This document shows, piece by piece, positions 17,747 to 62,769 of a stretch of 64,000 nt of DNA. Below the pieces are notes generated by a model, which did no database searches, was not told where the DNA came from, and saw only the letters and a list, made by a program, of their open reading frames with translations. The number at the start of each line of letters is the position of its first letter. Position 1 is the stretch's first letter. Source of the stretch: a virus (Duplodnaviria; Caudoviricetes); IMG/VR virus record IMGVR_UViG_3300044633_001982; one strand, 5' to 3'. The position numbers and the translations under genes are program-made.

Positions 17747-17754
17747 TATTTATA
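17747..17754 (+). promoter_or_regulatory. Putative late promoter motif TATTTATA
   Basis: 5 nt before the ATG at 17760. Confidence 0.5.
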
Positions 17755-17759
17755 TTTGA

Positions 17760-25035: not shown

Positions 25036-28000
25036 TTATGTCGATGGAGGACAGTTTGGTGTGTCAGATATATTCGATGCTACCCCAAAATAGTTACCTG
25101 TGTGTACAATATCTGCAGGATAGTTAGGGCTCCAACCTGGAATTACATTTATAAATGTTACTTTCTTACCTTGTGAAGGCGAAGTTGGTTGAGATGTGAA
25201 TCCTTGACCTAATGATACATTTGGAACTGGTTGTGTTTGTATTACTATAATTGGACTTAGTGGATAACTTCTACAAACTCTATAAATATACGTGTAAGCT
25301 TGTAATGATGGAGTTGGTGTTAATGTTGAGGATGGAGTTGGTGTTGGAGTATACGTTGGAGTCGGTGAAGGACTAATACCTGGTGTACAGAATACACAAT
25401 TTAATAAATCAACAGATGCCACTGAAGTTAGTGAATGTGTTGGTGCGGTACTAACAACATCAACATAGGTTACACAGTAACTAATATTATTAATATAAAC
25501 TGATACTACTGCTCCAATTGGGACTTCACCTAAACTACCTGTAACATAAAATATTTGGTCAGAATTACAATCTACTAATTTTTTAGAGATTGGACATAAC
25601 AAAAATTGTTCAAACGAGTTATAAGTAACAGTACCGGCAATTGGTACGTCAAACGGTAGTGGTGTCGGTGTTGGTGTTTTTGTTGGAGTTGGTGAGGTAG
25701 ATATAGTTATTGTTGTTGCGGAAACGTCAACTGATTTACCTGAACAATATTGTGTGGGTGTTGGAGTAGACGTAGGTGTTGAAGTTACCGTAGGTGTTAA
25801 TGTGGGTGTTGGAGTCAATCCTGGGTAAGACCCACTACCATCAACGGAACACTCAAACTGTGCTTCAAACCAAAAATCAGAACATGTAATATCGGATGGT
25901 GTTGGTGTTGGTGTTACAAGACCTATATATAATATGTCATCACATAAGTCAGGACATTTATTAAAACAAGGACTCTTACCTTCTAATACACATGGACCAT
26001 CTAAAGTTTGTGATAAACACCATCTTGTAGTCCCTGTATTATAATAAATTACATTTAGACTTGATGAGTTCCAATAATAAGATTGTCCATTCCATTCACT
26101 TATTAAATTATAAACTCCATCATATTGTGAATACGATGGGTCGTTAGTGTATACAGTATAAACTTGTAATGGACATGTGGTATATGTTGTTGGAGTAATT
26201 GTAGGTGTGATTGAAGGGGTTACAGTTTTTGTTGGTGTTGGTGTTGGTGTATTAAAAGATACACTTGTTCTTGTAACTGTTGGTGTTGGGTTATTTGTTG
26301 GTGTAATTGAAGGTGTGACAGTGTTTGTTGGTGTTAAAGTTAAAGTTGCGGTTGGTGTCTTTGTTGGGGTAGATGTTTTAGCCGGTGTCTTTGTTGGGGT
26401 GTTTGATGGGGTAATTGTTGGAGTTACTGCAACTGCGGTTGTTGTAAATACTTTTGAAGGAGATGCGGTACCTCCTCCTGTACAAGTAATTAATGTGTAT
26501 AAATATAATGGACCTGTCAAATATCCTGACGCGGCTATTGTCACTGACGGACCACACCCAAAGGTACTTGATGAATATGTTATATCATCAAAAGAATAAT
26601 ATAAAGTAACAATGTTACAATTACCTGTAGTAGTCTCCCAAGTTACATAAAATTGGTCACCACCTAAATAAACTGCTGATAATATGTTTGGTGAAGTACA
26701 AACTTGTGATTTAGTTGGGGTAATGGTTCTTGTTGGTGTTGATGTTGGTTTTATTGATTTCGAGGTTGTACTTGGTGTTGGTGTTGGAGTCTTTGTTTTT
26801 GTTGGTGTTGGAGTCTTTGTTTTTGTTGGTGTATTTGTTGGGGTTGGTGTAGATGTTGCTTGAGCTAAATTTGATGTATGTGTTGGTGTTGGAGTTTTTG
26901 TTTTAGTTGGTGTAATCGTTGGTGTTGGGGATGCGGGTATTGGTGCGGGGGCAGGTGATGGATTACCTTGAACATTACTTAATGATACTGTATTACAAAT
27001 AATTAATGATGCAGCTCCTTGATTGTATACGCTAGTGCCTCCTGCAGGGGTTAATACCCAAGACCCTGAATTATATGTTAATTGTAATACTTGGCCTAAA
27101 CTATTGCCTCGATAAAGATAAATATTACCCGCCTTAATACCGATTCCATAAATGTCGTTATACCCTAAACTACCAACATTTATTTCAACTTCAATAGTCC
27201 CTGAGTTGTCTGAACTATATTGACGAACTAAATACGCTACAGGTCCTCCCCCTGTTTGATATTCTGTTGTAATATATTTACCATTTGTCAATTTTAAAAT
27301 ATCTCCATTTAAGTAGGATATTCCTGTACCGTCACCTAATGGAAATAATTCAGTTATTGTTGCGGGATTTGGTAATAAATTAACTTGATATAAAATACCA
27401 TTTGATTCTGTTATTATTAAATTATCATTTAATGAATCTAACCCTGCGCCTAAATAAAAAGGGTTACCATTATATGTTAATGTTCTCGAATCGACAAATT
27501 GTAATGTTTGTTTATTATATCTTGAGATGACATGGTTAAGGTAACTGAAAAAATAATTATCAGATACTGCCAAATCAGGACCTTGATTTGTACCACCAAC
27601 CAATTGACCAACTAATGTTGTTGTATTTGTGATTGGATTGTTAATGTAAATGTTTTTTCCTGCATTAACATAAATTGGACAAGAGTCAGTTCCTGATGTA
27701 GGAGTAGGAGTTGGAGTTTTAGTCGGAGTCTTAGTCGGAGTCTTAGTCGGAGTCTTAGTCGGAGTCTTAGTCGGAGTCTTAGTTACTGTAGGTGTAGGTG
27801 TTGGTGTAACACATGTAATACCTTCAGATGACAAACAGGTTGCACAATCATTCGCTCCGTATTTTGTTATTGTAGTTGAAGCGACTGTTGGAGGACCATA
27901 AAGAGGTAACGTTCCATTGAATACTGTTGAGAATGAAATAAGAACAAAACAACTTGTAATTTCAGTTCCTAATGACAAATTTTTAATTGACATATGAACT

Positions 28001-29403
28001 GTCATCCCAACTGATGGAACCACACTTTGACCTACCCAATTTACGCCTGTCACTTGGTAATTAATACCTGAACAACATTCTTGTAATATATAATAAGCGT
28101 TTTTATTAACCGACGTTGAAGATGGTGTAGGTGTTGGAGTTTGAGTAGGACCTGGAGTTGGTGTAACAGGGTTACTAATTAAGTAATTTAATGTTATTGT
28201 GTTACAACCAGGACTTGAAGAACCTGCTCCTGATATTGATTGACCATTTATTAGGTCGTATAAGAAAATAACTTGGAAACTTGAACCATTATAAATTAAT
28301 CTATATACTGAATAATTGTTTACTAAAAATAAACTATTACCTTGAGTTGCGATACCCTCAACTTGAGTCAATCCCAAAGTTGTTAAATTTACCGAATTTT
28401 GTAAATTACCCGAAACATCATATTCATTTAAGTACTTAACACCTGTGTTACTTGTTACAGACATTATATACGTGTTTGATGAAGTTTTAATTAAATCACC
28501 TGTGATTGAATAACCTGTTGGTAATTGAAATAATAATGTGTTGGATGCTGTTGAAGTGCTTACATTTAATTCATAAATTGAATTACTTGAATTACAAATC
28601 AACACATTATTACTAATACTTGCTAAACCTCTACCTAACGTAATTGTTGTTGTAATAGTGTTAACAAGTGTTAATGTTGTCTTATTATATCGGTATATTG
28701 TATTACCTAAGTTTGAAGTATATAGATAACTTGATGAAACTGCGACATCGTTTGAAGATAACGCAGGTGTTAGAGTTCCTAAAAGATTATATGTATTTGC
28801 GCTAGGATTAAGTGTCATAATCCTATCCGCGTTAGCGTCTATTAAATAAATTGTACAATCAACAAATCCGTTAGTTGGAGTGATTGTTGGTGTGGGTGTT
28901 TTGGTAGGTGTTTTGGTAGGTGTTTTGGTAGGTGTTTTGGTAGGGGTCTTAGTAGGTGTAACTGATGGAGTTTTTGTTTTTGTTGGGGTATGAGTTTTTG
29001 TTGGTGTCGGAGTTTTTGTTTTTGTTGGTGTAGGTGTCGGAGTGGTGGCAGCTCCACCGGAATCTTCGCAAATTAGAAACTCCGATTTACAAACAGTACA
29101 GCTAGCACAACTATTAGTTAAACTTGCACACGGTCCATAACCACCACTACCTACAAACCCAGACCAAGTGTATGTTGAAAGAGATGGATTAGGTCCTGGA
29201 AGTGAGGATACAATTATTCCACAATCACCTGATGTGAAACCTGAACTTACAATTATATATACTTCACCTGTTTGAACAGTTATAGTATCACCTAAGTAAT
29301 TAGTATAGTCAGGAATACCGCTAGGGGCGTAAAGAACATACTGAGTTTGAGATACACCGTTACAACATCTATTTACTTTATAATAACCTGGTAATAAAGC
29401 CAT
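25036..29403 (-). CDS. Large modular decoration/fibre protein: Cys-rich modules, two beta-propeller-like domains, many Pro/Thr stalks
   Basis: 1455 aa; two similar blade-repeat regions (D.AVS..Y; GDL/ILK; GI..G.N.YL) separated by (TKTP)n tracts. Confidence 0.7.
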   Translation of the reverse strand: MALLPGYYKVNRCCNGVSQTQYVLYAPSGIPDYTNYLGDTITVQTGEVYIIVSSGFTSGDCGIIVSSLPGPNPSLSTYTWSGFVGSGGYGPCASLTNSCASCTVCKSEFLICEDSGGAATTPTPTPTKTKTPTPTKTHTPTKTKTPSVTPTKTPTKTPTKTPTKTPTKTPTPTITPTNGFVDCTIYLIDANADRIMTLNPSANTYNLLGTLTPALSSNDVAVSSSYLYTSNLGNTIYRYNKTTLTLVNTITTTITLGRGLASISNNVLICNSSNSIYELNVSTSTASNTLLFQLPTGYSITGDLIKTSSNTYIMSVTSNTGVKYLNEYDVSGNLQNSVNLTTLGLTQVEGIATQGNSLFLVNNYSVYRLIYNGSSFQVIFLYDLINGQSISGAGSSSPGCNTITLNYLISNPVTPTPGPTQTPTPTPSSTSVNKNAYYILQECCSGINYQVTGVNWVGQSVVPSVGMTVHMSIKNLSLGTEITSCFVLISFSTVFNGTLPLYGPPTVASTTITKYGANDCATCLSSEGITCVTPTPTPTVTKTPTKTPTKTPTKTPTKTPTKTPTPTPTSGTDSCPIYVNAGKNIYINNPITNTTTLVGQLVGGTNQGPDLAVSDNYFFSYLNHVISRYNKQTLQFVDSRTLTYNGNPFYLGAGLDSLNDNLIITESNGILYQVNLLPNPATITELFPLGDGTGISYLNGDILKLTNGKYITTEYQTGGGPVAYLVRQYSSDNSGTIEVEINVGSLGYNDIYGIGIKAGNIYLYRGNSLGQVLQLTYNSGSWVLTPAGGTSVYNQGAASLIICNTVSLSNVQGNPSPAPAPIPASPTPTITPTKTKTPTPTHTSNLAQATSTPTPTNTPTKTKTPTPTKTKTPTPTPSTTSKSIKPTSTPTRTITPTKSQVCTSPNILSAVYLGGDQFYVTWETTTGNCNIVTLYYSFDDITYSSSTFGCGPSVTIAASGYLTGPLYLYTLITCTGGGTASPSKVFTTTAVAVTPTITPSNTPTKTPAKTSTPTKTPTATLTLTPTNTVTPSITPTNNPTPTVTRTSVSFNTPTPTPTKTVTPSITPTITPTTYTTCPLQVYTVYTNDPSYSQYDGVYNLISEWNGQSYYWNSSSLNVIYYNTGTTRWCLSQTLDGPCVLEGKSPCFNKCPDLCDDILYIGLVTPTPTPSDITCSDFWFEAQFECSVDGSGSYPGLTPTPTLTPTVTSTPTSTPTPTQYCSGKSVDVSATTITISTSPTPTKTPTPTPLPFDVPIAGTVTYNSFEQFLLCPISKKLVDCNSDQIFYVTGSLGEVPIGAVVSVYINNISYCVTYVDVVSTAPTHSLTSVASVDLLNCVFCTPGISPSPTPTYTPTPTPSSTLTPTPSLQAYTYIYRVCRSYPLSPIIVIQTQPVPNVSLGQGFTSQPTSPSQGKKVTFINVIPGWSPNYPADIVHTGNYFGVASNISDTPNCPPST
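26777..26831. repeat. 24-bp direct repeat x2 (8-residue Pro/Thr/Lys unit)
   Basis: gttggtgttggagtctttgttttt at 26777 and 26801. Confidence 0.8.
27721..27780. repeat. Perfect 12-bp tandem repeat x5 encoding (TKTP)n
   Basis: agtcggagtctt five times. Confidence 0.95.
28895..28942. repeat. Perfect 12-bp tandem repeat x4 encoding (TKTP)n
   Basis: ggtgttttggta four times. Confidence 0.95.
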
Positions 29404-41014: not shown

Positions 41015-41022
41015 TATTTATA
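41015..41022 (+). promoter_or_regulatory. Putative late promoter motif TATTTATA
   Basis: 4 nt before the ATG at 41027. Confidence 0.55.
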
Positions 41023-41026
41023 TAGT

Positions 41027-42505
41027 ATGAATAAGAAAACTATCATAGATAAAATTTTGAATGAGTCAATCGATGACAAAATTAATGAATTGACATCAAG
41101 ACTTGAAGAAAAAATTAATATTTTAGAAGTTGATGCTTATGATTTAGAATATGAACAGACATATGTTTTTGATAGTGTTAATGGAAAACCTAAAAGAGTA
41201 ATTTTTAAAGGTAGAGGTAGAAAAGGTAGGAGTGATTCTGAAACCCAAACTTATCATTTTGAAGATGATAGAGGTAACGATATAATGTTATCAAAAAAAG
41301 GAGTGTTGAATAAAATAAAAAATGTAGATAAAGAAATGAAAAAAGAAAATGACGAGTTTACCGAGGGTAATGCTTTCACAAAAAAATTGAAAGATACCAA
41401 AAAAGGTGGTGAATTTAAAATTGGAAATAAAACTTATGTTGACAAATCAGAATTAGAAGAAAAACTATATGGTGGTCAAAAAAAGTTAGACAAAAATAAC
41501 AATAATAAAATTGACTCTGAGGATTTTAAAATGTTAAGAAAGCATAATAAATCTGAAATTGAAGAGTTAGGTGGTATGGATGATGTACACCCAAGATTTG
41601 GAAAGAAAAATTTTGGAAAAATGAGTTATGATGAGATAATTGGTCTTTTAACTCAAAAATTGGAAGATGATGAGGATGAAAGTGGGACGAAAACCAATAA
41701 TAGTGACCGTTTGGAAGAAGCTAAAAAATTTATTCAGAAAGCGGTAAATAAAATGGGAAAGAAAGGTACCTCAGGTGCTAAAAATGAGTCAATTATGTAT
41801 AAATTAGCATTAACTGAAAACACAACAATGGATTTAACTGAAGATGAGTTGATTGATATGATTGAGGAATTAGTTATTGAAGCGAAAGAAAATGAAAAGT
41901 TTTCAGGTAAGGCTAAAGGTACAGTTGAATATGAAAGAATTTCAAAATTGAATAAGAAAGAAAATAGTGACGCGTTAAAAGACGTAGATAAAAAAATGAG
42001 AGAATATCTCAAAGATGGTTCAAAGGGACAGTACAATACAAACCCTAAATTTTTTCCAAAAAATAACGGACAATTGGCTAAAATGGATAAAAAGGCTTAT
42101 ATCCCTTCCGATGCGGTTAATGATTATGTGGACAATTTAACGGCTGCGGCACTTGAAAACATTGATTATGATGGAATAAATCCTGACGAGAAATGGGTAA
42201 CTGATAATATTGAAGGTTCTTCAAGAACTGGTAACAATCCAGGATGGGCGAACACAGGAGAATCCGATGTTAACAAAAAAAGAAATAAGATTAGAAAAGA
42301 TAATTTGTTATCTAAAATTAAAAGAAAGGCTTATAATAAATCCGCTCAACCAATTGTTAAAGATTCTTCAGGTGAACAAACGGATAAGGCAAGTAAATTA
42401 ATGATGAAGTTAGAGTCAACTTTTGAAAAAGAACAAAATAATTTAATTAGTGAAGAGTTCAGTAAAATTATGAACCTTATGAGTTACAATAAAAAAACTC
42501 AATAA
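41027..42505 (+). CDS. Probable prohead core/internal head protein
   Basis: Charged, many (I/L)xE sites, EF-hand-like LDKNNNNKIDSEDF; ATG at 41027. Confidence 0.5.
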   Translation: MNKKTIIDKILNESIDDKINELTSRLEEKINILEVDAYDLEYEQTYVFDSVNGKPKRVIFKGRGRKGRSDSETQTYHFEDDRGNDIMLSKKGVLNKIKNVDKEMKKENDEFTEGNAFTKKLKDTKKGGEFKIGNKTYVDKSELEEKLYGGQKKLDKNNNNKIDSEDFKMLRKHNKSEIEELGGMDDVHPRFGKKNFGKMSYDEIIGLLTQKLEDDEDESGTKTNNSDRLEEAKKFIQKAVNKMGKKGTSGAKNESIMYKLALTENTTMDLTEDELIDMIEELVIEAKENEKFSGKAKGTVEYERISKLNKKENSDALKDVDKKMREYLKDGSKGQYNTNPKFFPKNNGQLAKMDKKAYIPSDAVNDYVDNLTAAALENIDYDGINPDEKWVTDNIEGSSRTGNNPGWANTGESDVNKKRNKIRKDNLLSKIKRKAYNKSAQPIVKDSSGEQTDKASKLMMKLESTFEKEQNNLISEEFSKIMNLMSYNKKTQ

Positions 42506-49626: not shown

Positions 49627-52600
49627 TTAAGCTAATAAAACTTTGTAAGAATTTCCGTTAATTCTTATTTCCCAAGTCCTTGAGGAACTGCACGACTCAG
49701 TTGTTATAGTACCAATAGGAATTGAGGAACTACCTACAACAAATTGATTATTTCCAGTTGCCGTAGCATAACCACCAAGAATAATTGAATAATTATAATT
49801 TCCTGAATTTGTATTATTACCAATTGCAATATTTCGGTACCCTGAGGTGTTTTGATATAATGATTTATATCCAAGTGCAATATTTGATTGTCCATAGTTA
49901 GAAAATAAAACACAATAGCCCAATCCAATATTATGAGAACCACCATTACTTCCATACATTGATTTAAGACCTAAAAGAATATTATAACTACCACCGCAAG
50001 ACGTTCTTCCAAAACTATAATATCCAATAGCAATGTTGTGATTTCCAACAGGTACTGGACCAGTATAACCAATTGATTTAGTCCCTATTGCAATGTTATT
50101 ATTACCTCCATTAGCCCTATATAGAGCACCACTACCTATTGCAACATTTTCACTGCCATATACATTAAAAGTGAGAGTATTATGTCCTAAACTCACATTT
50201 AAATTTCCATAATAGTTGCAAGATTGAGATTCTTGCCCTATCGCAATATTACCTGAAAATTTTGAGTAATTTGTTGTGTAGTACGGCGCTCCTGAGTTTG
50301 TTGTACCACCATATAGGGAATTCAATCCGATTGCAATATTTGATAGTCTACTTTCACCACCAACCCAATCATGTAATGTATTGGGCCCAATTGCTATATT
50401 ATCAGATTTTTTGTCCGATTTACGAAGTGATTGATAACCTATCGCAATATTTCTAACCCCATCAGTATTATAACATAACGCCTGATTACCAATTGCAATG
50501 TTGTCTCTACCTGTACTTGTATAGTATAATGAGTTATATCCTAATGAAATATTGTTACTACCTGTTGTAATTTCTCCACCTGAATTTCTACCTAACGCAA
50601 TGTTGTGTACACCTGTAGTATTACTATATAAAGAACTTCTACCTATTGCAATATTATAATTACCCGTAAAATTGTTGGCCATTGTACCTCTACCTAACGC
50701 AACATTACCACAACCTTGGTTGGAATAACATCCTGAATTACTCATCAAAGCTCTTCTACCAATTGCAATATTTTCACAACCATTATTATTATTTAACATT
50801 GAACACCTACCAATTGCAACGTTAAAATCAGGTTTTGGTCCTTGTGCTCCTGTATTGTAATACAATGCCGCCTGACCAATTGCAATGTTATGGTCTGAAG
50901 CCGAAGTATTGTTTCTTAAAGAATCATATCCGATTCCAATATTACCAATACCACTTGTTAAACAATTCGAGTTTTGTCTTATAGCATTAGTCCCAATTGC
51001 AATATTCTTGGAACCGTTGGGATTACAATACAATGATGTAACACCTAAGGAAATATTATCATCACCTGCACATTTATTTTTTTGACTTTTGAAACCCAAT
51101 GCAATGTTACGAGAAAAACTAATTGAACATCCGTAACCATATAACGCATAATCACCTATACCGATATTACAATAACCTGTAGACAACTTTTTTAAAGAAT
51201 TAGTACCTATCCCAATATTACGAGAAATACTAGTCCCCTCACGTAATGATTTATCACCAATTGCAATATTTCCAAACATACATTGAGAGATATTATAAAG
51301 AGAAGAACTCCCCATAGATATGTTATTATTCCCACATGCTTGGTACATATTTTTATATCCAATGGATATATTGTAATTCAGGCCATAACATACTGATTGA
51401 GAACTGGACATAGATTTATGACCTAAGGATATGTTAAAATCACCTATGGTTTTACTTCTTAAAGACTTATACCCAATTGATGTATTACCTTGTCCAAGAT
51501 TACTTGTTTGTGACTGTTGTCCTATCGCAATGTTATTCCCTCCAGGAGCCACTCCACTAAATGCAACACCACCAATTGATATATTAGTACATACGTTAAA
51601 ATTACCTCTACCAACACGAACACCATTCACATTCAACGTTGGTGAGGTTGCGGCACCATCAAATGTTAACAATGATTCTGCAACTGCGCCTCCACTACCA
51701 TCAGATGTTAAAACCTGATTGTTTGAACCTGGCACCGTGAACTGAGGTGACCCACTAAAAACTAATGTATTTGTTGACGCTGAAGTAATTGATATATTAA
51801 CACCACTAAAATTTATAAAAGTTCCAGTATTTGCGGAGAATTGTGTGGTACCACTAATTCTTACAGATTGAAATGATGATGGTAAGTTTTGATATGTGGT
51901 TGCAGATATTGTAGTTGCAGTTAATCCTTGTAGTGAAGTATTTCCTGTTACGGTTAAGTTGCCATTAATAGTTCCACCACTTTTATCAAATTTATTACTT
52001 ATATCGGTTTGAATTGTTTGAATTATTGAACATCCGCTTAATGTACCACAAGTCAAAGCCGAATTGTCTGAAAATGGTGTTATTCCATAAGAATAATGTT
52101 GGGTACCTTCAGTGACTAAAGTTATTGAATGTGATTGATTACTAGTATTCGTTGCTCTTACTTTTACAACAATTCTGTCAGTTGTATTTATTGATGAACC
52201 CGAATAATATCCGTCCGTTAATTGCATTGATGGATTTGGGGAATTTGTAGTTACTGGAGCCGGGTCAGTTGTAACAAGTAGAGTTTCGGTTCCCCCTGTG
52301 GTTCTTAAATAAACCTCACAGAATATATCAAAAGATGCGTTACTATTTTGTTTGAAAGAATGAAGATAAAAGCTCCAATATCCTGCAGGTATTAGAGATG
52401 CGTTTGGATATCCAGTTGGTGTTTGAAATGAGGTAATCGTACTAGTTACTCCATTGTTAATTGTAACAGCCGTTATTTGTTGTGAATTTGTTGTTCCACT
52501 TGGACTAAATTCTCTATATGGTGGTTGTGAGTTTGATAAATTTAAATAATATACTTGACCTCCAGGTCCTCCTATTGGAAGTCCAGTAACCGTAAAAGTT

Positions 52601-53010
52601 CCTCCTGTATTATTTAAAAAGGTAATTTCTCCATTTGTATAAGTTCCTCCTGTAACATAAACATCGGTTGGTAAATTCTGATAAGTTGTTGCTGAAATTG
52701 TGTTAGCAGTTAGTCCACTTTGGAATATAGTCCCCCCCGATACAGTTCCACCACTTAACGGAAGATATACACCTGTTGTTCCTCCAGCAGGACCCCAATT
52801 GGCGTTACCTGAAGCATCACAAGTTAATACATAACCATTTTGTTCAGTTCCATTAGAATACGTAAATCCACTATTTATAGTAAGTCCCGATAAAAAGATT
52901 GGATTAACAGGAATGGCTCCACCGATACGATAAACAATACCTGTTGATAAGTCAGATTGTAAGACGTAATTATAAGAATCTTTAATTAATTGGTTTTTAA
53001 TATCGGCCAT
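49627..53010 (-). CDS. Tail fibre with NxAIG (YadA-head-like) beta-solenoid repeats, Cys-rich
   Basis: 1127 aa; YLPLSGGT and FDKSGGTINGNL fibre motifs; about 30 N(I/V)(A/S/G)(I/L)G repeats; C-terminal WEIRINGNSYKVLLA; no S74 chaperone. Confidence 0.82.
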   Translation of the reverse strand: MADIKNQLIKDSYNYVLQSDLSTGIVYRIGGAIPVNPIFLSGLTINSGFTYSNGTEQNGYVLTCDASGNANWGPAGGTTGVYLPLSGGTVSGGTIFQSGLTANTISATTYQNLPTDVYVTGGTYTNGEITFLNNTGGTFTVTGLPIGGPGGQVYYLNLSNSQPPYREFSPSGTTNSQQITAVTINNGVTSTITSFQTPTGYPNASLIPAGYWSFYLHSFKQNSNASFDIFCEVYLRTTGGTETLLVTTDPAPVTTNSPNPSMQLTDGYYSGSSINTTDRIVVKVRATNTSNQSHSITLVTEGTQHYSYGITPFSDNSALTCGTLSGCSIIQTIQTDISNKFDKSGGTINGNLTVTGNTSLQGLTATTISATTYQNLPSSFQSVRISGTTQFSANTGTFINFSGVNISITSASTNTLVFSGSPQFTVPGSNNQVLTSDGSGGAVAESLLTFDGAATSPTLNVNGVRVGRGNFNVCTNISIGGVAFSGVAPGGNNIAIGQQSQTSNLGQGNTSIGYKSLRSKTIGDFNISLGHKSMSSSQSVCYGLNYNISIGYKNMYQACGNNNISMGSSSLYNISQCMFGNIAIGDKSLREGTSISRNIGIGTNSLKKLSTGYCNIGIGDYALYGYGCSISFSRNIALGFKSQKNKCAGDDNISLGVTSLYCNPNGSKNIAIGTNAIRQNSNCLTSGIGNIGIGYDSLRNNTSASDHNIAIGQAALYYNTGAQGPKPDFNVAIGRCSMLNNNNGCENIAIGRRALMSNSGCYSNQGCGNVALGRGTMANNFTGNYNIAIGRSSLYSNTTGVHNIALGRNSGGEITTGSNNISLGYNSLYYTSTGRDNIAIGNQALCYNTDGVRNIAIGYQSLRKSDKKSDNIAIGPNTLHDWVGGESRLSNIAIGLNSLYGGTTNSGAPYYTTNYSKFSGNIAIGQESQSCNYYGNLNVSLGHNTLTFNVYGSENVAIGSGALYRANGGNNNIAIGTKSIGYTGPVPVGNHNIAIGYYSFGRTSCGGSYNILLGLKSMYGSNGGSHNIGLGYCVLFSNYGQSNIALGYKSLYQNTSGYRNIAIGNNTNSGNYNYSIILGGYATATGNNQFVVGSSSIPIGTITTESCSSSRTWEIRINGNSYKVLLA

Positions 53011-53034: not shown

Positions 53035-53046
53035 TATTTATAAATA
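53035..53046. promoter_or_regulatory. Palindromic bidirectional late-promoter motif TATTTATAAATA
   Basis: Overlapping TATTTATA on both strands between divergent genes 53010 (-) and 53049 (+). Confidence 0.55.
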
Positions 53047-53048
53047 GT

Positions 53049-53387
53049 ATGGCAACTGTTTGTTATAAATGGAGTGACGCACCTTTTGCGTGGATTGATA
53101 CCCCTTTTACATGGGTGGAAGGGTGTATTATTGAAAAAATATTAGATGTAGTTAGTGCCGGTAGGGACAATTACAAAAAAACTAAAGAAAGAATAAAAGA
53201 ATTAACAGACGATGAAAAGGAAATTTTAATAAAACTTTTTGTCAGATTAGAAGTTGATGAGATAGAGTTTGAAAAAAGAGTTAATAAAAATAAAAATACA
53301 AAAGTTAAAATAAAACTTAAAGATATTGAAGTTGCAATGGCTCAAGAAAAATTTATAAAAGTCAATGTTAAAATTAATGAAGATTGA
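53049..53387 (+). CDS. Hypothetical protein
   Basis: 112 aa; late motif upstream. Confidence 0.6.
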   Translation: MATVCYKWSDAPFAWIDTPFTWVEGCIIEKILDVVSAGRDNYKKTKERIKELTDDEKEILIKLFVRLEVDEIEFEKRVNKNKNTKVKIKLKDIEVAMAQEKFIKVNVKINED

Positions 53388-53389
53388 TA

Positions 53390-53397
53390 TATTTATA
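53390..53397 (+). promoter_or_regulatory. Putative late promoter motif TATTTATA
   Basis: 4 nt before the ATG at 53402. Confidence 0.55.
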
Positions 53398-53401
53398 AGA
53401 T

Positions 53402-53863
53402 ATGGGATACAATTTATATACAGACAAACCAAATAAATTCAATTGTAATATTGAAATTGAAGGTACTTCCTTATCTAAGTCTAAAGTTAGATTAGTTGTT
53501 GAAACAAATGACATGTCATACATGTTTAATGGTAGTATCGAAAATAATGGAGTTTGTGAAGTTAACATCCCAAAAACAAAACACTTTTTACCTGAAGGTA
53601 CAAAAGGTAATATGAGACTTGAAGTTATTGCTGATGATGTTTATTTTGAGCCATGGTCCTCAGACTTCAACGTTAAAACAAACAAAAAAGTGAATGTTAC
53701 GGTTTCAGAACAAGTTGAAGAAAAACCAAAATTAAAAGTTCAAGTATTTGAACAAGAAGAAGAAAAAAATGTTAAACCCGTTGTCGAGACAAAACAACCT
53801 GTTAAGAAATTCAAAAAACAGTTAACAAAAGAGGACCTTCTTAAAAAATTGATGTCACTTTAA
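53402..53863 (+). CDS. Hypothetical beta-rich (Ig-like) structural protein
   Basis: Alternating beta-strand pattern; charged tail. Confidence 0.55.
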   Translation: MGYNLYTDKPNKFNCNIEIEGTSLSKSKVRLVVETNDMSYMFNGSIENNGVCEVNIPKTKHFLPEGTKGNMRLEVIADDVYFEPWSSDFNVKTNKKVNVTVSEQVEEKPKLKVQVFEQEEEKNVKPVVETKQPVKKFKKQLTKEDLLKKLMSL

Positions 53864-58959: not shown

Positions 58960-59269
58960 TTTTAAATTTGAGGATATTGTAGATAAGATAGATAGCACTC
59001 TATCAAGAATTCAAATTTTGGATAATAAGATAAGTCCTGACTACATTTTAAAAAATGCTAAGGATTATGAAATTTTATTTATAAATTCTAAATTTTCTGA
59101 TAGTAAAGAAATTATTTATGATGAAATCTTCAAACTTAAAAATGGATTGATTTTGTATTTATCAAGAGAACAAGAGACCCCAATTTTTAAATTAAAGGTC
59201 TATTATGATATCGAAAAAATAAACGAACTAAAAATGTTTTTAAGTACATTAAAATTATGGAAAGAATAA
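58943..59269 (+). CDS. Hypothetical protein
   Basis: ATG at 58943 preferred over the track start at 58841. Confidence 0.55.
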   Translation: MKLTFDFKFEDIVDKIDSTLSRIQILDNKISPDYILKNAKDYEILFINSKFSDSKEIIYDEIFKLKNGLILYLSREQETPIFKLKVYYDIEKINELKMFLSTLKLWKE

Positions 59270-59559
59270 GCTCACAAGAAGTAAAAAGTAAGATTGATAA
59301 TAAAGAATCTTTTATTTTAAAAATGTCCGCAAGTTGGTGTGGACCATGTAGACAACTAACTGAAGAAATTAACAAGTCTGGAGTATCAGTACCTGTTTAC
59401 GAATTTGACGTAGAATCCGATGTTAACTTCTCAAGGGAAATGAATGTTAGAAGTGTACCTGTAATGAAATTCTTCAAAAATGGAATTGATTCAGCTACTA
59501 CGGTAGGTTTAAAACCAGCAAGTGAAATAAAACTTATGTCAGAACAATATATACTATGA
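59257..59559 (+). CDS. trxA: Thioredoxin
   Basis: WCGPC, VRSVP, FKNG. Confidence 0.92.
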   Translation: MERISSQEVKSKIDNKESFILKMSASWCGPCRQLTEEINKSGVSVPVYEFDVESDVNFSREMNVRSVPVMKFFKNGIDSATTVGLKPASEIKLMSEQYIL

Positions 59560-59846
59560 TTAAAAAAAGAAAACCACTTAAAGTTTTGATTGTTTATTCT
59601 ATGGAAGGATGCCCATGGTGTATAAAATTTAAAGAGTTATTAACAAAACATAGAATCAAATTTAAAGAAAGAGATATTCATAAATTTAAAGATGAGTACG
59701 ATTTATTTGTAGAAGCGACTCAAAATGATTTTGTTCCAGCATTTATGATTTTAGATGTTGCATCTGAAAAAGGTGATTTTTTCGCACCTGAGAGAGATTT
59801 CCAAGATTTAGATGAAGCTTTAAAGATTGTTAAAGAAAATTTGTAG
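59556..59846 (+). CDS. Glutaredoxin-like protein
   Basis: YSMEGCPWC, FVPAF. Confidence 0.8.
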   Translation: MIKKRKPLKVLIVYSMEGCPWCIKFKELLTKHRIKFKERDIHKFKDEYDLFVEATQNDFVPAFMILDVASEKGDFFAPERDFQDLDEALKIVKENL

Positions 59847-59858: not shown

Positions 59859-60386
59859 ATGAAAGAATTAGTTTTTAAAAAGAAAGGGGTGGTTCACACC
59901 CCTTTGACTTACTGGCAAATTGATAAACGATACACAATTGCGATTTATCAGGGAGGTAGAGGAGCTAGACCTGACCTTGACTTTATTGTAAAATATAAAG
60001 AAGAGGGTAAACGGTTACGTACTCCATCACATACTCATTGGATTGTAGATTTGATTGCAAAGGCTCAATACGATAAGGGAAGAGTTAAATCATATGTTGA
60101 AGATATGATTAAAATGTATGATGAGTGTGAACCTTTTAATAGTGAGGAAGAACGAAACAATTATAAGTTACAATGTCCTACAAAATTTTGGATGAATCAC
60201 ATTATGATTGAGGATAAAGGATATTATCCACTACAGGTATTAACTACCTTTATTGAGTTATTTTCTAAATGTGAAAAACAAACACCAGGGGCTTTCATGT
60301 TTAGAAACTTATTGGTTTTGGTTAAAGAGTATTGTGAAGGTAAAAAAGACTTTTACCAGATAGTAGGTTACTCTAAACGAGTTTAA
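59859..60386 (+). CDS. Hypothetical protein (moron-like)
   Basis: 175 aa, own promoter element, RLRTPSHTHW motif; no family recognised. Confidence 0.7.
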   Translation: MKELVFKKKGVVHTPLTYWQIDKRYTIAIYQGGRGARPDLDFIVKYKEEGKRLRTPSHTHWIVDLIAKAQYDKGRVKSYVEDMIKMYDECEPFNSEEERNNYKLQCPTKFWMNHIMIEDKGYYPLQVLTTFIELFSKCEKQTPGAFMFRNLLVLVKEYCEGKKDFYQIVGYSKRV

Positions 60387-61000
60387 AATAAATTTAACAA
60401 TAACCTACTTTCATCTAACAATACATCAATTGGACCATCGTAGTTATCTTTTAGGATTGACAATAGTTTTTCTGATGTATAATAACTATCAGATTTTATT
60501 GATGTAATTTCAAAATCTGTTTTAGTTAGTTTACAAGTTAACTCGACCCAACTAAATTTAAAATACGGTTGAGATTTACAAGATATTTCTTTCAGATGAT
60601 TATAAGTTTGTTTAAGGTAATTTTCAGAGTAACCGTGAGGGAATTTTGAAGATACTGAAATACTTAATTCTGAATTGATTTGAGGGACTTCTTTAGTGGA
60701 ATATGAGATTACCTCATCTTCAAAATCTTTTTCATCACAACTATATGATATTACATCAATCGTACTAATATATTTTAAATATGGGTATTTGTTTTTAACC
60801 GACTCAACAAACTCAGAAGATATTTTGTTGGGAGATATTACTTCAGAACTTTCAGTAAACCCTTTAATTACCATAAAGTTCTCAACATCAACTACTGATA
60901 ATCTTGTTTTATGTGTGTTATTCTCACTGATTAAATTACATAGATAATCGGCAAAATCGTTAACTAAATTTTGGCGAACTGATACTTCCATTTTTTCCAT
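60383..61000 (-). CDS. Degenerate, truncated S-adenosylmethionine synthetase (MetK)-like protein
   Basis: VNDFADYLCNLI...TRLSVVDVENFMVIKGFT loosely parallels the MetK N-domain (DQISD...RVA.E....V.GEIT); no intact GHPDK or GGGAFSGKD. TATTTATA on the minus strand at 61029-61036. Confidence 0.4.
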   Translation of the reverse strand: MEKMEVSVRQNLVNDFADYLCNLISENNTHKTRLSVVDVENFMVIKGFTESSEVISPNKISSEFVESVKNKYPYLKYISTIDVISYSCDEKDFEDEVISYSTKEVPQINSELSISVSSKFPHGYSENYLKQTYNHLKEISCKSQPYFKFSWVELTCKLTKTDFEITSIKSDSYYTSEKLLSILKDNYDGPIDVLLDESRLLLNLF

Positions 61001-61057
61001 GTTAAAATTTAGTAGGAAAAAAAATGACTATAAATAGTAAATTGATTTTTACAATTA

Positions 61058-62383
61058 TTAAAAGTAATCTCCGATATTTCCGTTAACACAACTATCAACT
61101 TTCCTATGGTCGGGATATTCGTCTAATCTTGGAACTCTCAATAAATCACGACCACCATCATCAATTAAATCTGAATATAATCTTTCGTAACTACCAAAAT
61201 ATATGATTGTATCGCAATAAGTACCATTACAATCTTTGTTATCGTTTAACCATTCTGAAACAACATTATATATACAGTTTGTTGCTTTGTATCTTGTTCC
61301 GTAAAATGTTCTTGATACTTTATTACCATCTTTATCGAAAGATTGTTTTTTGTATGAATAGTCATCTATTTCACCATTATCAATTACAGAACCAATTAGT
61401 TCCCCCATTAAACTTTTATACCATTCTTCAGTTAATACTCCTTCATAACAACCCTGGTATAAACTATATAAATCACTTCTAACATCATATAATTCTTTAT
61501 TGATTAGATATTCAATGGTATCATCGTCACCAAGTACTCGAGAAATAACATCATCGGTTAACTCAACGTCATTACGACCTTGTTCCCGAGCAATTTCTTT
61601 AAGTAATTCGGTGTCGGTACCTATTGTTTTCATATCTCTAAGTTCTAATACAATTCTTTCATTAACCAATTGTTTATTTTCATTTTTTAATTCAGTATAT
61701 ACGTCCCTATAAACATCATCAGTCACATCCCAAAAATTCATATCATGTTCACCTTGTAAAATACTTTCAATCGTATCTCTACTCATTTCACTGCGATAAC
61801 CTGTTTCAAAGAAACCTGAAAGTTCCGCAGGGGATGTGTCAAAATAATAATCGTTACCAATTTTTGTAACATCTGAAATAAATTTATCAACTATTGTCCA
61901 AACAAATGAACTATCGTTTTCATAGAATAAATAAAATAATTGATTTTGGTAATCATCCCAATCACTTGAAAAAGGGTCAATGTAACCAAGAAGATTGTTT
62001 TTTGTTAATAAATTAAAAAATTTATCTATACCACCTATTGCATTTTCAATAAAATCAACATCGATGTCCCCATTTTGAAATTTATTAAGGATTCTAAGTA
62101 ATTTTTCTTGAACTTTATTTAATTTAAGTTCTTCTTGTTCTTCTTCATTTAATTTTTTATTGTGTATTAAATTACCGCTATCAATAATTTCATAATTAAC
62201 ACAATCTTCATTAAAATTGACTACATCTAAAATTGGGTGGGTAACATATATTTTACTATTTCTAATTAGACAAACTTTTGTTGGAAACCCTATTAAGTCT
62301 TTCATGTGTTTCCAGCAATGAAATTCAGGGTCTTCATTTATGAACCCTTTGATGTAAATTGTATCACCCATTTTTAATTCCAT
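61058..62383 (-). CDS. Acidic hypothetical protein
   Basis: 441 aa, Asp/Glu-rich; late motif at 62387-62394. Confidence 0.7.
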   Translation of the reverse strand: MELKMGDTIYIKGFINEDPEFHCWKHMKDLIGFPTKVCLIRNSKIYVTHPILDVVNFNEDCVNYEIIDSGNLIHNKKLNEEEQEELKLNKVQEKLLRILNKFQNGDIDVDFIENAIGGIDKFFNLLTKNNLLGYIDPFSSDWDDYQNQLFYLFYENDSSFVWTIVDKFISDVTKIGNDYYFDTSPAELSGFFETGYRSEMSRDTIESILQGEHDMNFWDVTDDVYRDVYTELKNENKQLVNERIVLELRDMKTIGTDTELLKEIAREQGRNDVELTDDVISRVLGDDDTIEYLINKELYDVRSDLYSLYQGCYEGVLTEEWYKSLMGELIGSVIDNGEIDDYSYKKQSFDKDGNKVSRTFYGTRYKATNCIYNVVSEWLNDNKDCNGTYCDTIIYFGSYERLYSDLIDDGGRDLLRVPRLDEYPDHRKVDSCVNGNIGDYF

Positions 62384-62386
62384 AGT

Positions 62387-62394
62387 TATAAATA
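62387..62394 (-). promoter_or_regulatory. Putative late promoter motif TATTTATA
   Basis: 3 nt upstream of the minus-strand ATG at 62383. Confidence 0.55.
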
Positions 62395-62396
62395 TT

Positions 62397-62422
62397 AAAA
62401 AAGGGAGAATATTCTCCCTTTT
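62397..62422. terminator. Perfect palindromic hairpin/terminator
   Basis: AAAAGGGAGAAT|ATTCTCCCTTTT (62399-62422) with a U-tract on the minus strand, downstream of the micro-ORFs. Confidence 0.8.
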
Positions 62423-62451
62423 AAATTCTTTAATTAATAGATTTGGATTGA

Positions 62452-62502
62452 TTATTTACCACAACCACATCCACCACCGTTATTACCACCACCGTTTTTC
62501 AT
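62452..62502 (-). CDS. 16-aa Gly/Cys micropeptide MKNGGGNNGGGCGCGK (not in ORF track)
   Basis: Clean ORF with codon-like GGT usage in an AT-rich gap; TATTTATA at 62531-62538 upstream; terminator downstream. Confidence 0.6.
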   Translation of the reverse strand: MKNGGGNNGGGCGCGK

Positions 62503-62540
62503 AGTATTATTTTTTTAAAAGTTTATTATCTATAAATATT

Positions 62541-62675
62541 TTATTGCTGTTTGTTTTTATAAAATTTTTCAATAGTTTTTTTTACTGCATTTTGTACACT
62601 TTCATTTTGTTGTTGAACTTGTTGAATTTTAACCTGTTGTTCAGGATTTTGTTTGTTTTTACAGCCACAGCCCAT
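62541..62675 (-). CDS. 44-aa micropeptide MGCGCKNKQNPEQQ...KTIEKFYKNKQQ (not in ORF track)
   Basis: Clean ORF; A-rich leader; TATTTATA at 62706-62713 upstream. Confidence 0.7.
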   Translation of the reverse strand: MGCGCKNKQNPEQQVKIQQVQQQNESVQNAVKKTIEKFYKNKQQ

Positions 62676-62757
62676 ATTTTTATTTTTTTTAGATTTATTC
62701 TTTTTTATAAATATTATTAATTGAAATATTAAAAGGAAATAGTTATTAATTTAACAG

Positions 62758-62764
62758 TATTTAT
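62758..62764 (+). promoter_or_regulatory. Putative late promoter motif TATTTAT
   Basis: 5 nt before the ATG at 62770. Confidence 0.5.
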
Positions 62765-62769
62765 TTAAT

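What the first reader, a model, noticed from the sequence alone, without database searches (positions are those of the whole stretch)
62397..62713. Two Cys-Gly-Cys micropeptides, each with its own late promoter and a shared terminator
Seen: a 44-aa ORF starting MGCGCK and a 16-aa ORF MKNGGGNNGGGCGCGK ending in GCGCGK. Each is preceded by TATTTATA, both are followed by a perfect 24-bp palindrome, and both are absent from the ORF track. The dedicated signals argue they are real genes. Inference: the shared GCGC motif (N-terminal in one, C-terminal in the other) could chelate metal, cross-link Cys-rich virion proteins, or be a modified-peptide (RiPP-like) precursor or substrate for the phage's transferases. 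I know of no described function.
Basis: partly seen in the sequence, partly recalled or inferred. Interest (0 to 1): 0.7.

Follow-up and report, generated by a model that had tools for sequence, protein, structure and literature searches.

The report
Conserved Cys-Gly-Cys micropeptide gene pair
Two tiny genes (44 and 16 codons) of an uncultured freshwater jumbo phage are real and conserved in over a hundred related phages; both carry a terminal Cys-Gly-Cys-Lys hook, a motif that in some cell proteins holds iron-sulfur clusters or metals, but their function is untested.

Summary
On the minus strand lie pep1 (62541-62675, 44 aa, starts MGCGCK) and pep2 (62452-62502, 16 aa, ends GCGCGK). Each has TATTTATA 28-30 nt before its ATG, and both are followed by a perfect hairpin plus T-run (62399-62422).

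Both are genuine protein-coding genes. Degenerate DNA scans of IMG/VR found 82 and 91 loci, against 0 and 1 for the reversed control patterns. Both Cys codons are used, all length changes are in frame, and the MK...CGCGK frame is kept in 11-23-aa variants. The pep1 family has 180 clusters at 50% identity, all small and unfused.

The pair sits in a conserved block: Y (divergent) | pep1 - pep2 - X - ... - glutaredoxin/thioredoxin. The block persists where X is only about 23% identical. Contigs from RNA libraries cover pep1 and run into pep2.

Function is unknown. The best guess (about 0.4) is that these are "anchor-tether-hook" peptides whose CxC-Lys dithiol binds a metal or Fe-S cluster. The same GGGCGCGK tail ends cellular IscA-type, FeoB-associated, SlyD-like and Zn-ribbon proteins, and a giant-virus protein family.

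A thiol-disulfide shuttle is the main rival. A phage-encoded RiPP route is disfavoured (no YcaO or radical SAM). No described family fits.

The parts
62706..62713 (-). TATTTATA promoter-like element of pep1. It is followed by a GAATAAATC box (62700-62692) and lies 30 nt before the ATG.
   Evidence: In relatives, 60 of 71 distinct pep1 contexts have TATTTAT[AT] upstream, peaking 27-30 nt before the ATG, and 55 have the AATAAAC-like box. RNA-library contigs end at 62697, 9 nt downstream of the motif (weak hint of a transcription start).
62541..62675 (-). pep1: 44-aa micropeptide. It has an N-terminal M-G-C-G-C-K hook, a Gln-rich variable tether and a C-terminal amphipathic helix ending K-[YF]-Y.
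   Evidence: C3, C5, K6, K37 and Y39 are invariant in 28 diverse members. TGT and TGC are both used (97/61). Lengths run 39-59 aa, always in frame. The family has 180 clusters at 50% identity.
62531..62538 (-). TATTTATA promoter-like element of pep2. It is followed by GATAATAAAC (62530-62521) and lies 28 nt before the ATG.
   Evidence: 17 of 24 distinct pep2 contexts carry it 27-31 nt before the ATG. The GTAATAAAC box is kept even where TATTTATA is missing.
62452..62502 (-). pep2: 16-aa micropeptide MKN-(G/N)n-GGGCGCGK, a Gly/Asn tether with a C-terminal C-G-C-G-K hook.
   Evidence: There are 13 peptide variants of 11-23 aa, all keeping the MK start and the CGCGK-stop frame, with synonymous use of Gly, Cys, Asn and Lys codons. 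It is kept as a stand-alone promoter-ORF-terminator unit about 45 kb from pep1 in a 322-kb relative.
62397..62422 (-). Intrinsic terminator shared by pep1 and pep2: a perfect 24-nt palindrome (62399-62422) whose AAAA/TTTT ends flank the GGGAGAA/TTCTCCC core, then a T-run on the minus strand.
   Evidence: In relatives, 23 of 24 distinct pep2 contexts have a perfect hairpin plus T-run 24-36 nt after the stop, with 11 different stem sequences, so the structure is conserved rather than the sequence.
62387..62394 (-). Third TATTTATA, 3 nt before the ATG of gene X.
   Evidence: The same 'motif + 3-6 nt + ATG' class occurs at five genes of the window and at X in relatives.
61058..62383 (-). Gene X (441 aa), the invariably linked downstream gene. 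It has an SH3-like, FeoA-like N-domain (residues 1-70, absent in many relatives) and a core with no recognisable fold.
   Evidence: 69 of 71 distinct downstream proteins are homologs, down to 23% identity. The models have pLDDT 86.5 and 89.3. FeoA 6e55_A scores Z 8.0. The core has no match.
62770..64000 (+). Gene Y (runs off the window; 429 aa in relatives), acidic and divergently transcribed. Its own TATTTATT lies at 62758-62765, 4 nt before the ATG.
   Evidence: A homolog lies on the opposite strand upstream of pep1 in 65 of 72 distinct contexts. It has no Pfam or PHROG family.
59257..59846 (+). Thioredoxin (59257-59559) and glutaredoxin (59556-59846) pair, part of the conserved neighbourhood.
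   Evidence: Pfam E-values are 1.3e-13 and 8.3e-9. Homologs lie 1.4-9 kb from pep1 in about 70 loci, including the divergent clades.

Best explanation
SHOWN (comparative evidence): pep1 and pep2 are bona fide protein-coding micro-genes of a large clade of uncultured freshwater jumbo phages (200-320 kb, about 31% GC). Each is a promoter-like motif / short ORF / intrinsic terminator unit. They form a conserved block: Y (divergent) | pep1 - pep2 - X.

INFERRED architecture: 'anchor-tether-hook'.
- pep1 has an N-terminal C-x-C-Lys hook, a variable Gln/Thr/Pro tether and a conserved basic amphipathic anchor helix.
- pep2 is a bare Gly/Asn tether with a C-terminal C-G-C-G-Lys hook.

INFERRED mechanism: the two thiolates of the hook ligate a metal ion or an Fe-S cluster. 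One hook offers only two ligands, so a full site needs two hooks (pep1+pep2, or two copies of pep1) or one hook plus a partner protein. The peptides would therefore bridge, cap or deliver a metal or cluster during late infection, for example for X, Y or the Cys-rich virion appendages.

Which metal, which partner, and the timing are all unknown.
For: Coding and real:
- 82 and 91 IMG/VR loci match the two patterns, against 0 and 1 for the reversed controls.
- The Cys residues and the adjacent Lys are invariant, while TGT/TGC and the Gly, Asn and Lys codons vary.
- All length variants are in frame: pep1 39-59 aa, pep2 11-23 aa.
- The N-terminus varies (MG-, MS-, MA-, MAG-, MSG-; CGC, CSC or CAC) but C-x-C-K is kept.
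- An HMM search finds 180 clusters, all 100 aa or shorter, with no fusions.
- pep1 is single-copy in 5 of 5 large genomes and pep2 is present in 4 of 5. In one 322-kb genome pep2 survives as an autonomous unit far from pep1.

Signals: promoter-like motif and terminator statistics are.

RNA libraries: contigs from two studies cover 62463/62475-62683/62697, bridging pep1 into pep2.

Metal reading:
- In solved A-type carriers the aligned C-terminus reads ...SCGCGSSF. That motif supplies cluster ligands (own knowledge).
- PF12669 oligopeptides are prevalent in Bacteroidetes, and their Cys motif is linked to iron binding (PMC8749426).
- The X N-domain is FeoA-like (Z 8.0, rmsd 2.7, 72 aligned).
- Mia40's CPC motif can bind Fe or Fe-S (PMC4019985).
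- A giant-virus family (ceV_483 of CeV-01B) has the same anchor + Gly-run + CGCG[KR] design.
Against: - There is no experimental datum on metal binding, translation or timing.
- Neither peptide matches any Pfam family, including PF12669 and PF01521.
- The cellular proteins with the same tail were found by searching for that tail. About 9 hits were expected by chance in 596 Gb, and the set also contains families with no obvious metal role, such as cyclophilin.
- SH3-like folds are generic, and many X homologs lack that domain.
- A CxC dithiol is equally suited to disulfide exchange.
- One 99%-complete relative has pep1 but no detectable pep2, so a strict pep1-pep2 pair is not obligatory.
Confidence: 0.4

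Rival explanations
1. Thiol-disulfide shuttle, a 'mini-PDI'. The CxC-Lys hook cycles between dithiol and a strained disulfide. With the linked phage thioredoxin and glutaredoxin it helps form or reshuffle disulfides in the unusually Cys-rich virion appendages.
For: - CXC is a known redox-active shuttle motif on flexible termini. Examples are the C-terminus of Erv2 and the CPC of Mia40, both next to recognition helices (PMC4019985).
- Appendage proteins in the window carry 77, 39, 22, 22 and 17 Cys (2-3.9%), against 0-1% in many other ORFs.
- The Trx+Grx pair is linked within 1.4-9 kb in about 70 loci, including divergent clades.
- The promoter-like motif is shared with appendage genes.
- The same tail occurs in giant viruses, which as a group run cytoplasmic disulfide pathways (the pathway is own knowledge).
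Against: - No Erv/ALR oxidase was found in five large relatives, but the control genomes did not ring either, so this is uninformative.
- The Trx/Grx linkage may only reflect general genome collinearity or service to ribonucleotide reductase.
- The bacterial cytoplasm is reducing.
- No assay exists.
Confidence: 0.2
2. Structural or packaged late peptides. These would be small basic peptides that join the virion, or condense DNA, and are fixed by Cys cross-links to Cys-rich structural proteins or to each other.
For: - The motif is shared with virion genes.
- pep1 is net basic (8 Lys against 3 Glu, read).
- The module neighbours X and Y are acidic and conserved.
- The giant-virus counterparts are small basic proteins.
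Against: - There are no virion proteomes.
- X and Y match no known structural family. The only hit is a 17-bit match of Y to a major-head-protein PHROG, E 0.004 over 55 residues.
- An 11-aa peptide is an odd structural unit.
Confidence: 0.15
3. Precursors or substrates of post-translational modification: RiPP-like (for example thiazole formation at G-C-G-C), or Tyr sulfation at the conserved KYY by the phage PAPS/sulfotransferase operon. X would be the novel modifying enzyme.
For: - Gly/Cys-rich cores resemble linear azole peptide cores, and tiny ORFs with their own terminator before an enzyme gene recall mccA-mccB (both own knowledge).
- X is always adjacent and has an unrecognised fold.
Against: - No YcaO and no radical SAM were found in 5 large relatives, 3 of them 99-100% complete, with positive controls ringing.
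- APS kinase is present in only 2 of 5.
- There is no leader-like region. pep2 can be 11 aa.
- pep2 sits far from X in one genome.
- X has no invariant Cys, His or other obvious catalytic signature.
Confidence: 0.1
4. Not peptides at all. pep2 would be a leader ORF of an attenuator for X, or a small G-rich regulatory RNA. pep1 would be an expressed but functionless ORF.
For: - A short ORF followed by a terminator and then a gene is the classical attenuator layout.
- Gly codons keep GG runs whatever the third base, so a G-rich RNA element cannot be excluded from codon data alone.
- The region folds better than shuffles, z -3.1.
Against: - A promoter-like motif follows the terminator directly before X.
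- pep2 keeps its promoter-ORF-terminator unit when detached from X.
- No alternative antiterminator is conserved. The second hairpin is not kept in relatives.
- The MK...CGCGK frame is kept through 8 different ORF lengths, and Cys, Asn and Lys codons vary synonymously.
- There is no Rfam family. The best hit is 34 bits against a gathering score of 56, and it covers the terminator.
Confidence: 0.05

Closest known systems
C-terminal C-G-C-G motif of A-type Fe-S carriers (IscA/SufA/ErpA/HesB, Pfam PF01521)
   Same: Both have a C-G-C-G at the extreme terminus. A Chloroflexia MAG member of PF01521 ends in exactly ...GGGCGCGK. Solved relatives read ...SCGCGSSF at the aligned place.
   Different: The carriers are roughly 105-145-aa folded domains with a third Cys ligand. 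pep1 and pep2 have no such domain and no HMM match. Cluster binding by the phage peptides is untested.
FeoB-associated Cys-rich membrane oligopeptides (Pfam PF12669)
   Same: Both are very small ORFs with Gly/Cys-rich ends, prevalent in Bacteroidetes (the presumed host phylum) and functionally linked to an SH3-like FeoA. Their translation is also still an open question (PMC8749426). One member ends in ...GGGCGCGK.
   Different: PF12669 proteins have a transmembrane helix and a four-Cys motif, and they sit next to feoB. The phage peptides are soluble, carry one CxC, lie next to X and Y, and do not match the HMM.
CXC redox shuttles on flexible arms (Erv2 C-terminal CXC; Mia40 CPC)
   Same: In both, a single CXC at a flexible terminus, close to an amphipathic recognition helix, does the chemistry (PMC4019985).
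   Different: Those motifs are parts of FAD oxidases or folded oxidoreductases of eukaryotic compartments. Here they are free micropeptides in a bacterial cytoplasm, with no oxidase identified.
Giant-virus small protein family of ceV_483 (Chrysochromulina ericina virus CeV-01B, YP_009173738.1)
   Same: Both have a conserved anchor region, then a Gly run, then C-G-C-G-[KR] at the C-terminus. Both are virus-encoded and annotated 'hypothetical'.
   Different: The giant-virus proteins are about 62 aa, have an unrelated N-terminal region, infect a eukaryotic host and show no sequence homology outside the tail. Convergence or module transfer is undecided.
mccA, the 7-codon microcin C gene (own knowledge)
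   Same: It is a precedent for an extremely short ORF that is a real gene, followed by a hairpin terminator before a larger gene.
   Different: MccA is a precursor adenylated by MccB, and its defining C-terminal Asn is absent here. X is unrelated to MccB-type enzymes by every search run.
SH4 dual-acylation motif of Lck (MGCGCSS; own knowledge)
   Same: The first five residues are identical.
   Different: Myristoylation needs an invariant Gly2 and a eukaryotic N-myristoyltransferase. Here residue 2 is G, S or A, or one extra residue is inserted, and the virus is a tailed phage.

Membership tests
Protein-coding gene (versus chance ORF), pep1 | Amino-acid conservation with synonymous codon variation and in-frame indels only | tested here: met
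   C3, C5, K6, K37 and Y39 are invariant. TGT/TGC counts are 97/61. There are 14 different lengths, all in frame. The family has 180 clusters at 50% identity.
Protein-coding gene (versus chance ORF or sRNA), pep2 | Start codon, frame and stop kept through length variation; synonymous variation | tested here: met
   There are 8 ORF lengths (36-72 nt), all keeping MK...CGCGK-stop. Codon counts: Gly GGT/GGA/GGC 125/34/17, Cys TGT/TGC 36/16, Asn 54/9, Lys 49/8. The last 9 codons were fixed by the search pattern. The start, frame and tether were not.
Intrinsic (Rho-independent) terminator | G+C-rich stem-loop followed by a T-run, with structure kept while sequence varies | tested here: met
   for the window. 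23 of 24 distinct pep2 contexts have it, with 11 different stems.
T4-type late promoter (TATAAATA) | TATAAATA on the sense strand about 6 nt before the transcription start | tested here: not met
   The sense strand reads TATTTATA, the reverse complement of the T4 element. Nine intergenic copies are sense-oriented, 3-6 or 28-30 nt before an ATG. It is a phage-specific promoter-like motif, and the 'late' class is inferred only.
Linear azole / TOMM-type RiPP precursor | A YcaO cyclodehydratase (or another RiPP maturase such as radical SAM) encoded with the precursor | tested here: not met
   0 of 5 large related genomes have one, 3 of them 99-100% complete, with control genomes ringing. Host-encoded enzymes cannot be excluded.
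Linear azole / TOMM-type RiPP precursor | An N-terminal leader peptide recognised by the maturase | tested here: not met
   pep2 can be 11 aa in all, and in pep1 the Cys motif is at residues 3-5.
[quoted passage not shown] | HMM match, transmembrane helix, position next to feoB | tested here: not met
   There is no Pfam match for pep1 at E up to 10. Neither peptide has a hydrophobic segment (read). The neighbours are X and Y.
A-type Fe-S carrier (PF01521) | HesB-like domain with three conserved Cys, including the C-terminal C-G-C-G | tested here: not met
   Only the C-G-C-G motif is shared. There is no domain and no HMM match.
Leader-peptide transcription attenuator | The leader ORF and terminator control the downstream gene from one promoter, through alternative RNA structures | tested here: not met
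   A promoter-like motif lies between the terminator and X. pep2 also occurs detached from X. No conserved alternative hairpin was found.
N-myristoylated/palmitoylated SH4 motif | Invariant Gly at position 2 | tested here: not met
   MS-, MA-, MAG-, MSG- and MGG- variants exist.
Bacterial lipoprotein | Signal peptide with a lipobox before the Cys | tested here: not met
   The Cys is at residue 3 and there is no signal peptide.
Metal- or cluster-binding peptide (functional class) | Stoichiometric, Cys-dependent binding of a metal ion or Fe-S cluster | not testable with these tools
   This needs biochemistry. There is only motif analogy.

The most novel reading that the evidence does not exclude
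Tailed jumbo phages of Bacteroidota, and independently giant viruses of algae, encode free, ribosomally made 'hook' peptides: a tether plus Cys-Gly-Cys-Gly-Lys. These would serve as diffusible, genetically encoded dithiol cofactors. In effect they would be a viral stand-in for glutathione or A-type carriers. With the linked phage glutaredoxin and thioredoxin they would carry Fe-S clusters, or drive disulfide formation, for Cys-rich virion fibres. pep2, at 11 codons, would then be among the smallest autonomous protein-coding genes with a defined biochemical role.
Probability: 0.15. Interest if true: 0.85.

Novelty: new variant of a known kind. Interest (0 to 1): 0.68.

Why it matters
Micro-genes below 50 codons are routinely missed by annotation. 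pep2 is absent from gene calls, and pep1 is 'hypothetical' wherever it is called.

Here a pair of them is conserved more deeply than most of the phage's ordinary genes. Each has its own promoter-like and terminator signals, and both are recovered in RNA-library contigs. That makes them a clean test case for functional viral micropeptides.

The shared Cys-x-Cys-Lys hook links them to iron, Fe-S and thiol chemistry. The same hook recurs on giant-virus proteins and on metal-handling cell proteins. This gives a directly testable hypothesis using cheap synthetic peptides.

It also flags a four-gene module (Y, pep1, pep2, X) with two confidently modelled proteins of unrecognised fold in a widespread, uncultured group of freshwater jumbo phages.

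Tried and rejected
- Similarity to deposited phages. blastn of 60000-64000, tblastn of X and tblastn of pep1 against 50,697 GenBank phage records all found no match. No cultured relative exists. A Rad50-like protein only reaches Microcystis phage Mel-JY01 and 'huge phage' records at about 25% identity.
- Own genome. None is held.
- Fold of X. Foldseek against PDB and BFVD, VIA-align wide, the ESM-atlas shape search, a profile against PDB sequences, and Pfam on 36 members were all run. Only the N-terminal SH3-like domain finds relatives. The best Z for the core is 5.0 over 65 residues.
- Complex prediction of X with pep1. It returned no verdict (score 0.00) and is not used either way.
- Erv/ALR oxidase search in five relatives. 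There were no hits, but the control genomes did not ring, so this is uninformative.
- Protein-atlas look-alikes of pep1. Only unnamed clusters came back.
- Rfam. Nothing reached threshold.
- RNA libraries. In the four runs laid, the flanking genes X and Y had essentially no cover. The tool warns that holes prove nothing, so I do not use this as evidence of differential expression. Contigs give no strand and no ends. They stop inside pep2 exactly at the Asn-repeat indel site (62475-62479), which I read as an assembly break at a polymorphism, not a 3' end.
- Literature searches for CXC phage small proteins and for micropeptides in jumbo phages gave nothing specific.
- Earlier-scan look-ups by sequence and by words gave nothing on these peptides.
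- Similarity of X to Y. Only a weak shared ...LIDDxG...DYF stretch was found, E 0.039.
- Readings considered and rejected: eukaryote-type acylation, lipoprotein, attenuator (see the membership tests).
Full report
1. WHAT IS THERE

Reading the minus strand of 62380-62780 gives, in order:
- TATTTATA (62713-62706), followed by a GAATAAATC box.
- After 30 nt, pep1 (62675-62541, 44 aa, starts MGCGCK).
- TATTTATA again (62538-62531), followed by GATAATAAAC.
- After 28 nt, pep2 (62502-62452, 16 aa, ends GCGCGK).
- After 29 nt, the 24-nt perfect palindrome (62422-62399), which runs into a T-run.
- A third TATTTATA (62394-62387), and only 3 nt later the ATG of a 441-aa gene, here called X (61058-62383).

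The scan finds this hairpin as one of only two terminator-like sites in 60000-64000. Upstream, a gene Y (62770 onward, plus strand) runs divergently. Y has its own TATTTATT 4 nt before its ATG.

2. IS THE MOTIF MEANINGFUL?

TATTTATA is not enriched in the window as a whole: 21 copies against 15.6 expected. But 10 of the 21 lie in the 5.8% of the window that is non-coding. Nine of those ten are on the sense strand of the next gene, either 3-6 nt or 28-30 nt before its ATG.

The genes served include the large virion-appendage genes, such as the 1127-aa tail-spike-like protein and a 789-aa protein. It is therefore a recurrent, oriented, promoter-like element of this phage.

On the sense strand it is the reverse complement of the T4 late element. 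'Late' is an inference from the company it keeps.

3. THE PHAGE

The window encodes tail-fibre and virion proteins and a Rad50-like protein. It has no near relative among deposited phages. No whole genome is held for it.

Relatives are IMG/VR contigs of up to 322 kb, about 31% G+C. This is an uncultured freshwater jumbo-phage clade. Earlier notes of this scan suggest a Bacteroidota host (not tested here).

4. THE TWO ORFS ARE REAL GENES

Near-identical relatives (95-98%) are uninformative. More distant data are decisive.

- Protein search. A search with pep1 found 43-52-aa relatives. In their contigs, the gap before the X homolog contains a 17-aa pep2 with one extra in-frame Asn codon and synonymous changes. 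The flanks there have diverged, and the terminator stem is different but still complementary.
- DNA scans. Degenerate back-translated patterns for MGCGCKNKQ and for GGGCGCGK-stop hit 82 and 91 IMG/VR loci. The same patterns read backwards hit 0 and 1.
- pep1 variation. It has 39+ sequence variants of 39-59 aa. C3, C5, K6, K37 and Y39 are invariant. The Gln/Thr/Pro-rich middle varies freely in length. The C-terminal helix is conserved, roughly V-Q-x-A-V-K-K-T-I-E-K-Y-Y. Both Cys codons are used, TGT 97 and TGC 61. Residue 2 varies (G/S/A, or one inserted residue) and the middle residue of the motif can be G, S or A, but C-x-C-K never changes.
- pep1 family size. A profile search of 1.84 billion representatives finds 180 clusters. 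All are 100 aa or shorter, and the longer ones are upstream mis-starts. None is fused to anything.
- pep2 variation. It has 13 variants of 11-23 aa that differ by whole Gly/Asn codons. All begin with MK and end with CGCGK-stop. Gly, Cys, Asn and Lys codons vary synonymously.
- Copy number. pep1 is single-copy in five of five large genomes. pep2 is present in four of five.
- Autonomy of pep2. In a complete 322-kb genome pep2 sits about 45 kb from pep1. It still has TATTTATA-AGTAATAAACC in front and a hairpin behind. That argues for an autonomous gene, not a leader or spacer.

5. SIGNALS IN RELATIVES

- 60 of 71 distinct pep1 contexts and 17 of 24 distinct pep2 contexts have TATTTAT[AT], peaking 27-30 nt before the ATG.
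- 55 of 71 and 20 of 24 have the AATAAAC-like box.
- 23 of 24 pep2 contexts have a perfect hairpin plus T-run 24-36 nt after the stop, with 11 different stems.
- In some clades pep1 has its own terminator before pep2. In the window the two share one.

6. RNA LIBRARIES

Three poly(A)-selected metatranscriptome runs of one study hold contigs identical to 62475/62477/62479-62682/62697. A run of a second study holds a 94%-similar contig over 62463-62683.

These contigs cover pep1 and bridge the spacer into pep2. Their upstream ends at 62697 lie 9 nt past TATTTATA, which is a weak hint of a transcription start. They break inside pep2 exactly where relatives differ by one Asn codon, and a 3-nt insertion is seen there in the second study's contig.

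Contigs give neither strand nor ends, so this is compatible with transcription but is not proof of it.

7. CONTEXT

- X follows pep1/pep2 in 69 of 71 distinct cases, down to 23% identity.
- Y precedes them divergently in 65 of 72.
- A thioredoxin-glutaredoxin pair (Pfam) lies 1.4-9 kb away in about 70 loci, including the divergent clades.
- X models confidently (pLDDT 86.5 and 89.3). Its optional N-domain is an SH3-like barrel closest to FeoA (Z 8.0).
- The 350-residue core of X finds nothing. Y has no family either.

8. WHAT THE HOOK RESEMBLES

Scanning 596 Gb of prokaryotic genomes for GGGCGCGK-stop gave 20 hits, with roughly 9 expected by chance. Several are C-termini of recognisable proteins:
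- an IscA/HesB-type Fe-S carrier;
- a SlyD-like FKBP with a long Cys/Gly tail;
- an FmdB-type zinc ribbon;
- YgaP-like membrane proteins;
- a dCMP deaminase;
- cyclophilins.

In solved A-type carriers the aligned end reads ...SCGCGSSF. FeoB-associated oligopeptides are common in Bacteroidetes, are thought to bind iron, and their own translation is still unproven (PMC8749426). CXC motifs on flexible arms are also classic disulfide shuttles (Erv2, Mia40), and Mia40's CPC can hold Fe or Fe-S (PMC4019985).

The IMG/VR scan also picked up 54-75-aa basic proteins of giant-virus contigs ending in Gly-run-CGCGK. One of them (63 aa) belongs to a family of about 62 aa that includes ceV_483 of Chrysochromulina ericina virus. 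That family has the same design: a conserved anchor, a Gly tether and a CGCG[KR] end.

9. READING

What is shown: there are two conserved micro-genes with their own signals, inside a conserved four-gene block.

What is inferred: an anchor-tether-hook design in which a terminal dithiol next to a Lys does the work.

- I favour metal or Fe-S ligation (about 0.4), because the identical tail recurs on metal-handling proteins and X can carry a FeoA-like domain.
- A thiol-disulfide shuttle is the main rival (about 0.2). It is supported by the linked Trx/Grx and by appendage proteins with up to 77 Cys.
- Packaged or structural peptides remain possible (about 0.15).
- RiPP-like modification is disfavoured (about 0.1). 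There is no YcaO or radical SAM in five relatives, and APS kinase is present in only two of five.
- A non-coding or attenuator role is unlikely (about 0.05).
- Eukaryote-type acylation and lipoprotein readings fail their defining features.

10. NOVELTY

No Pfam, PHROG, Rfam or literature record covers pep1, pep2, X or Y. The chemistry of a CxC hook is familiar. What is new is its use as free, separately transcribed phage micropeptides, one of them only 11-23 codons long, conserved across a whole jumbo-phage clade and mirrored in giant viruses.

Noticed in passing
L018:1623-1811 (-), also L023, L047, L052, L064, L035; proteins P0155-P0164, P0176: Giant-virus (NCLDV) contigs, and Chrysochromulina ericina virus CeV-01B (ceV_483, YP_009173738.1), encode small basic proteins ending in a Gly run plus CGCG[KR]. 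This is the same tail as pep2 on an unrelated body.
   Followed up: partly
L199, L200, L203, L204, L195/L196, L201, L193/L209 (genome contigs): The exact tail GGGCGCGK-stop ends cellular proteins of several Pfam families: Zn_ribbon_8, FeoB_associated, Fe-S_biosyn, FKBP_C, YgaP-like_TM, dCMP deaminase and cyclophilin. A Gly-tethered CGCG(K) seems to be a recurrent C-terminal add-on.
   Followed up: partly
window 17747-17762, 41015-41029, 53035-53051, 53390-53404, 62381-62394, 62758-62772: A class of genes has TATTTAT[AT] only 3-6 nt before the ATG. If the motif is a promoter, these mRNAs would be leaderless or nearly so. The other class has a 28-30-nt spacer. 53035-53046 holds two overlapping copies, one on each strand, serving a divergent gene pair.
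   Followed up: partly
window 61058-62383 (-) and 62770-64000 (+): X and Y are conserved, acidic proteins that match no described family; X models confidently and its core finds no known fold, while Y was not modelled. They share a weak ...LIDDxG...DYF stretch (E 0.039). X gains or loses a FeoA-like SH3 N-domain among relatives.
   Followed up: partly
window 9695-15619, 6374-8581, 25036-29403, 20182-22155, 49627-53010: The virion appendage proteins are unusually Cys-rich: 77, 22, 39, 17 and 22 Cys (2-3.9%). Several non-structural ORFs have none.
   Followed up: no
L189:4728-4860 (+), a 5.3-kb contig binned to an Alphaproteobacteria MAG (UBA3650): A 43-aa ORF starts with the same MGCGCKNKQ but continues into a very basic Lys/Arg-rich tail instead of the KYY helix, and is followed by a hairpin. 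It may be a second family using the same N-terminal hook, on what looks like a mis-binned phage contig.
   Followed up: no
window 62478-62485 (pep2 Asn codons): The number of Asn and Gly codons in pep2 varies between close relatives and within RNA-library contigs (a 3-nt insertion at 62478). This points to fast in-frame repeat slippage in the tether.
   Followed up: partly
G005 (record of L109, 297 kb, 99% complete): This relative has pep1 and X but no detectable pep2, even with a relaxed pattern. pep2 is therefore dispensable, or replaced, in at least one lineage.
   Followed up: partly
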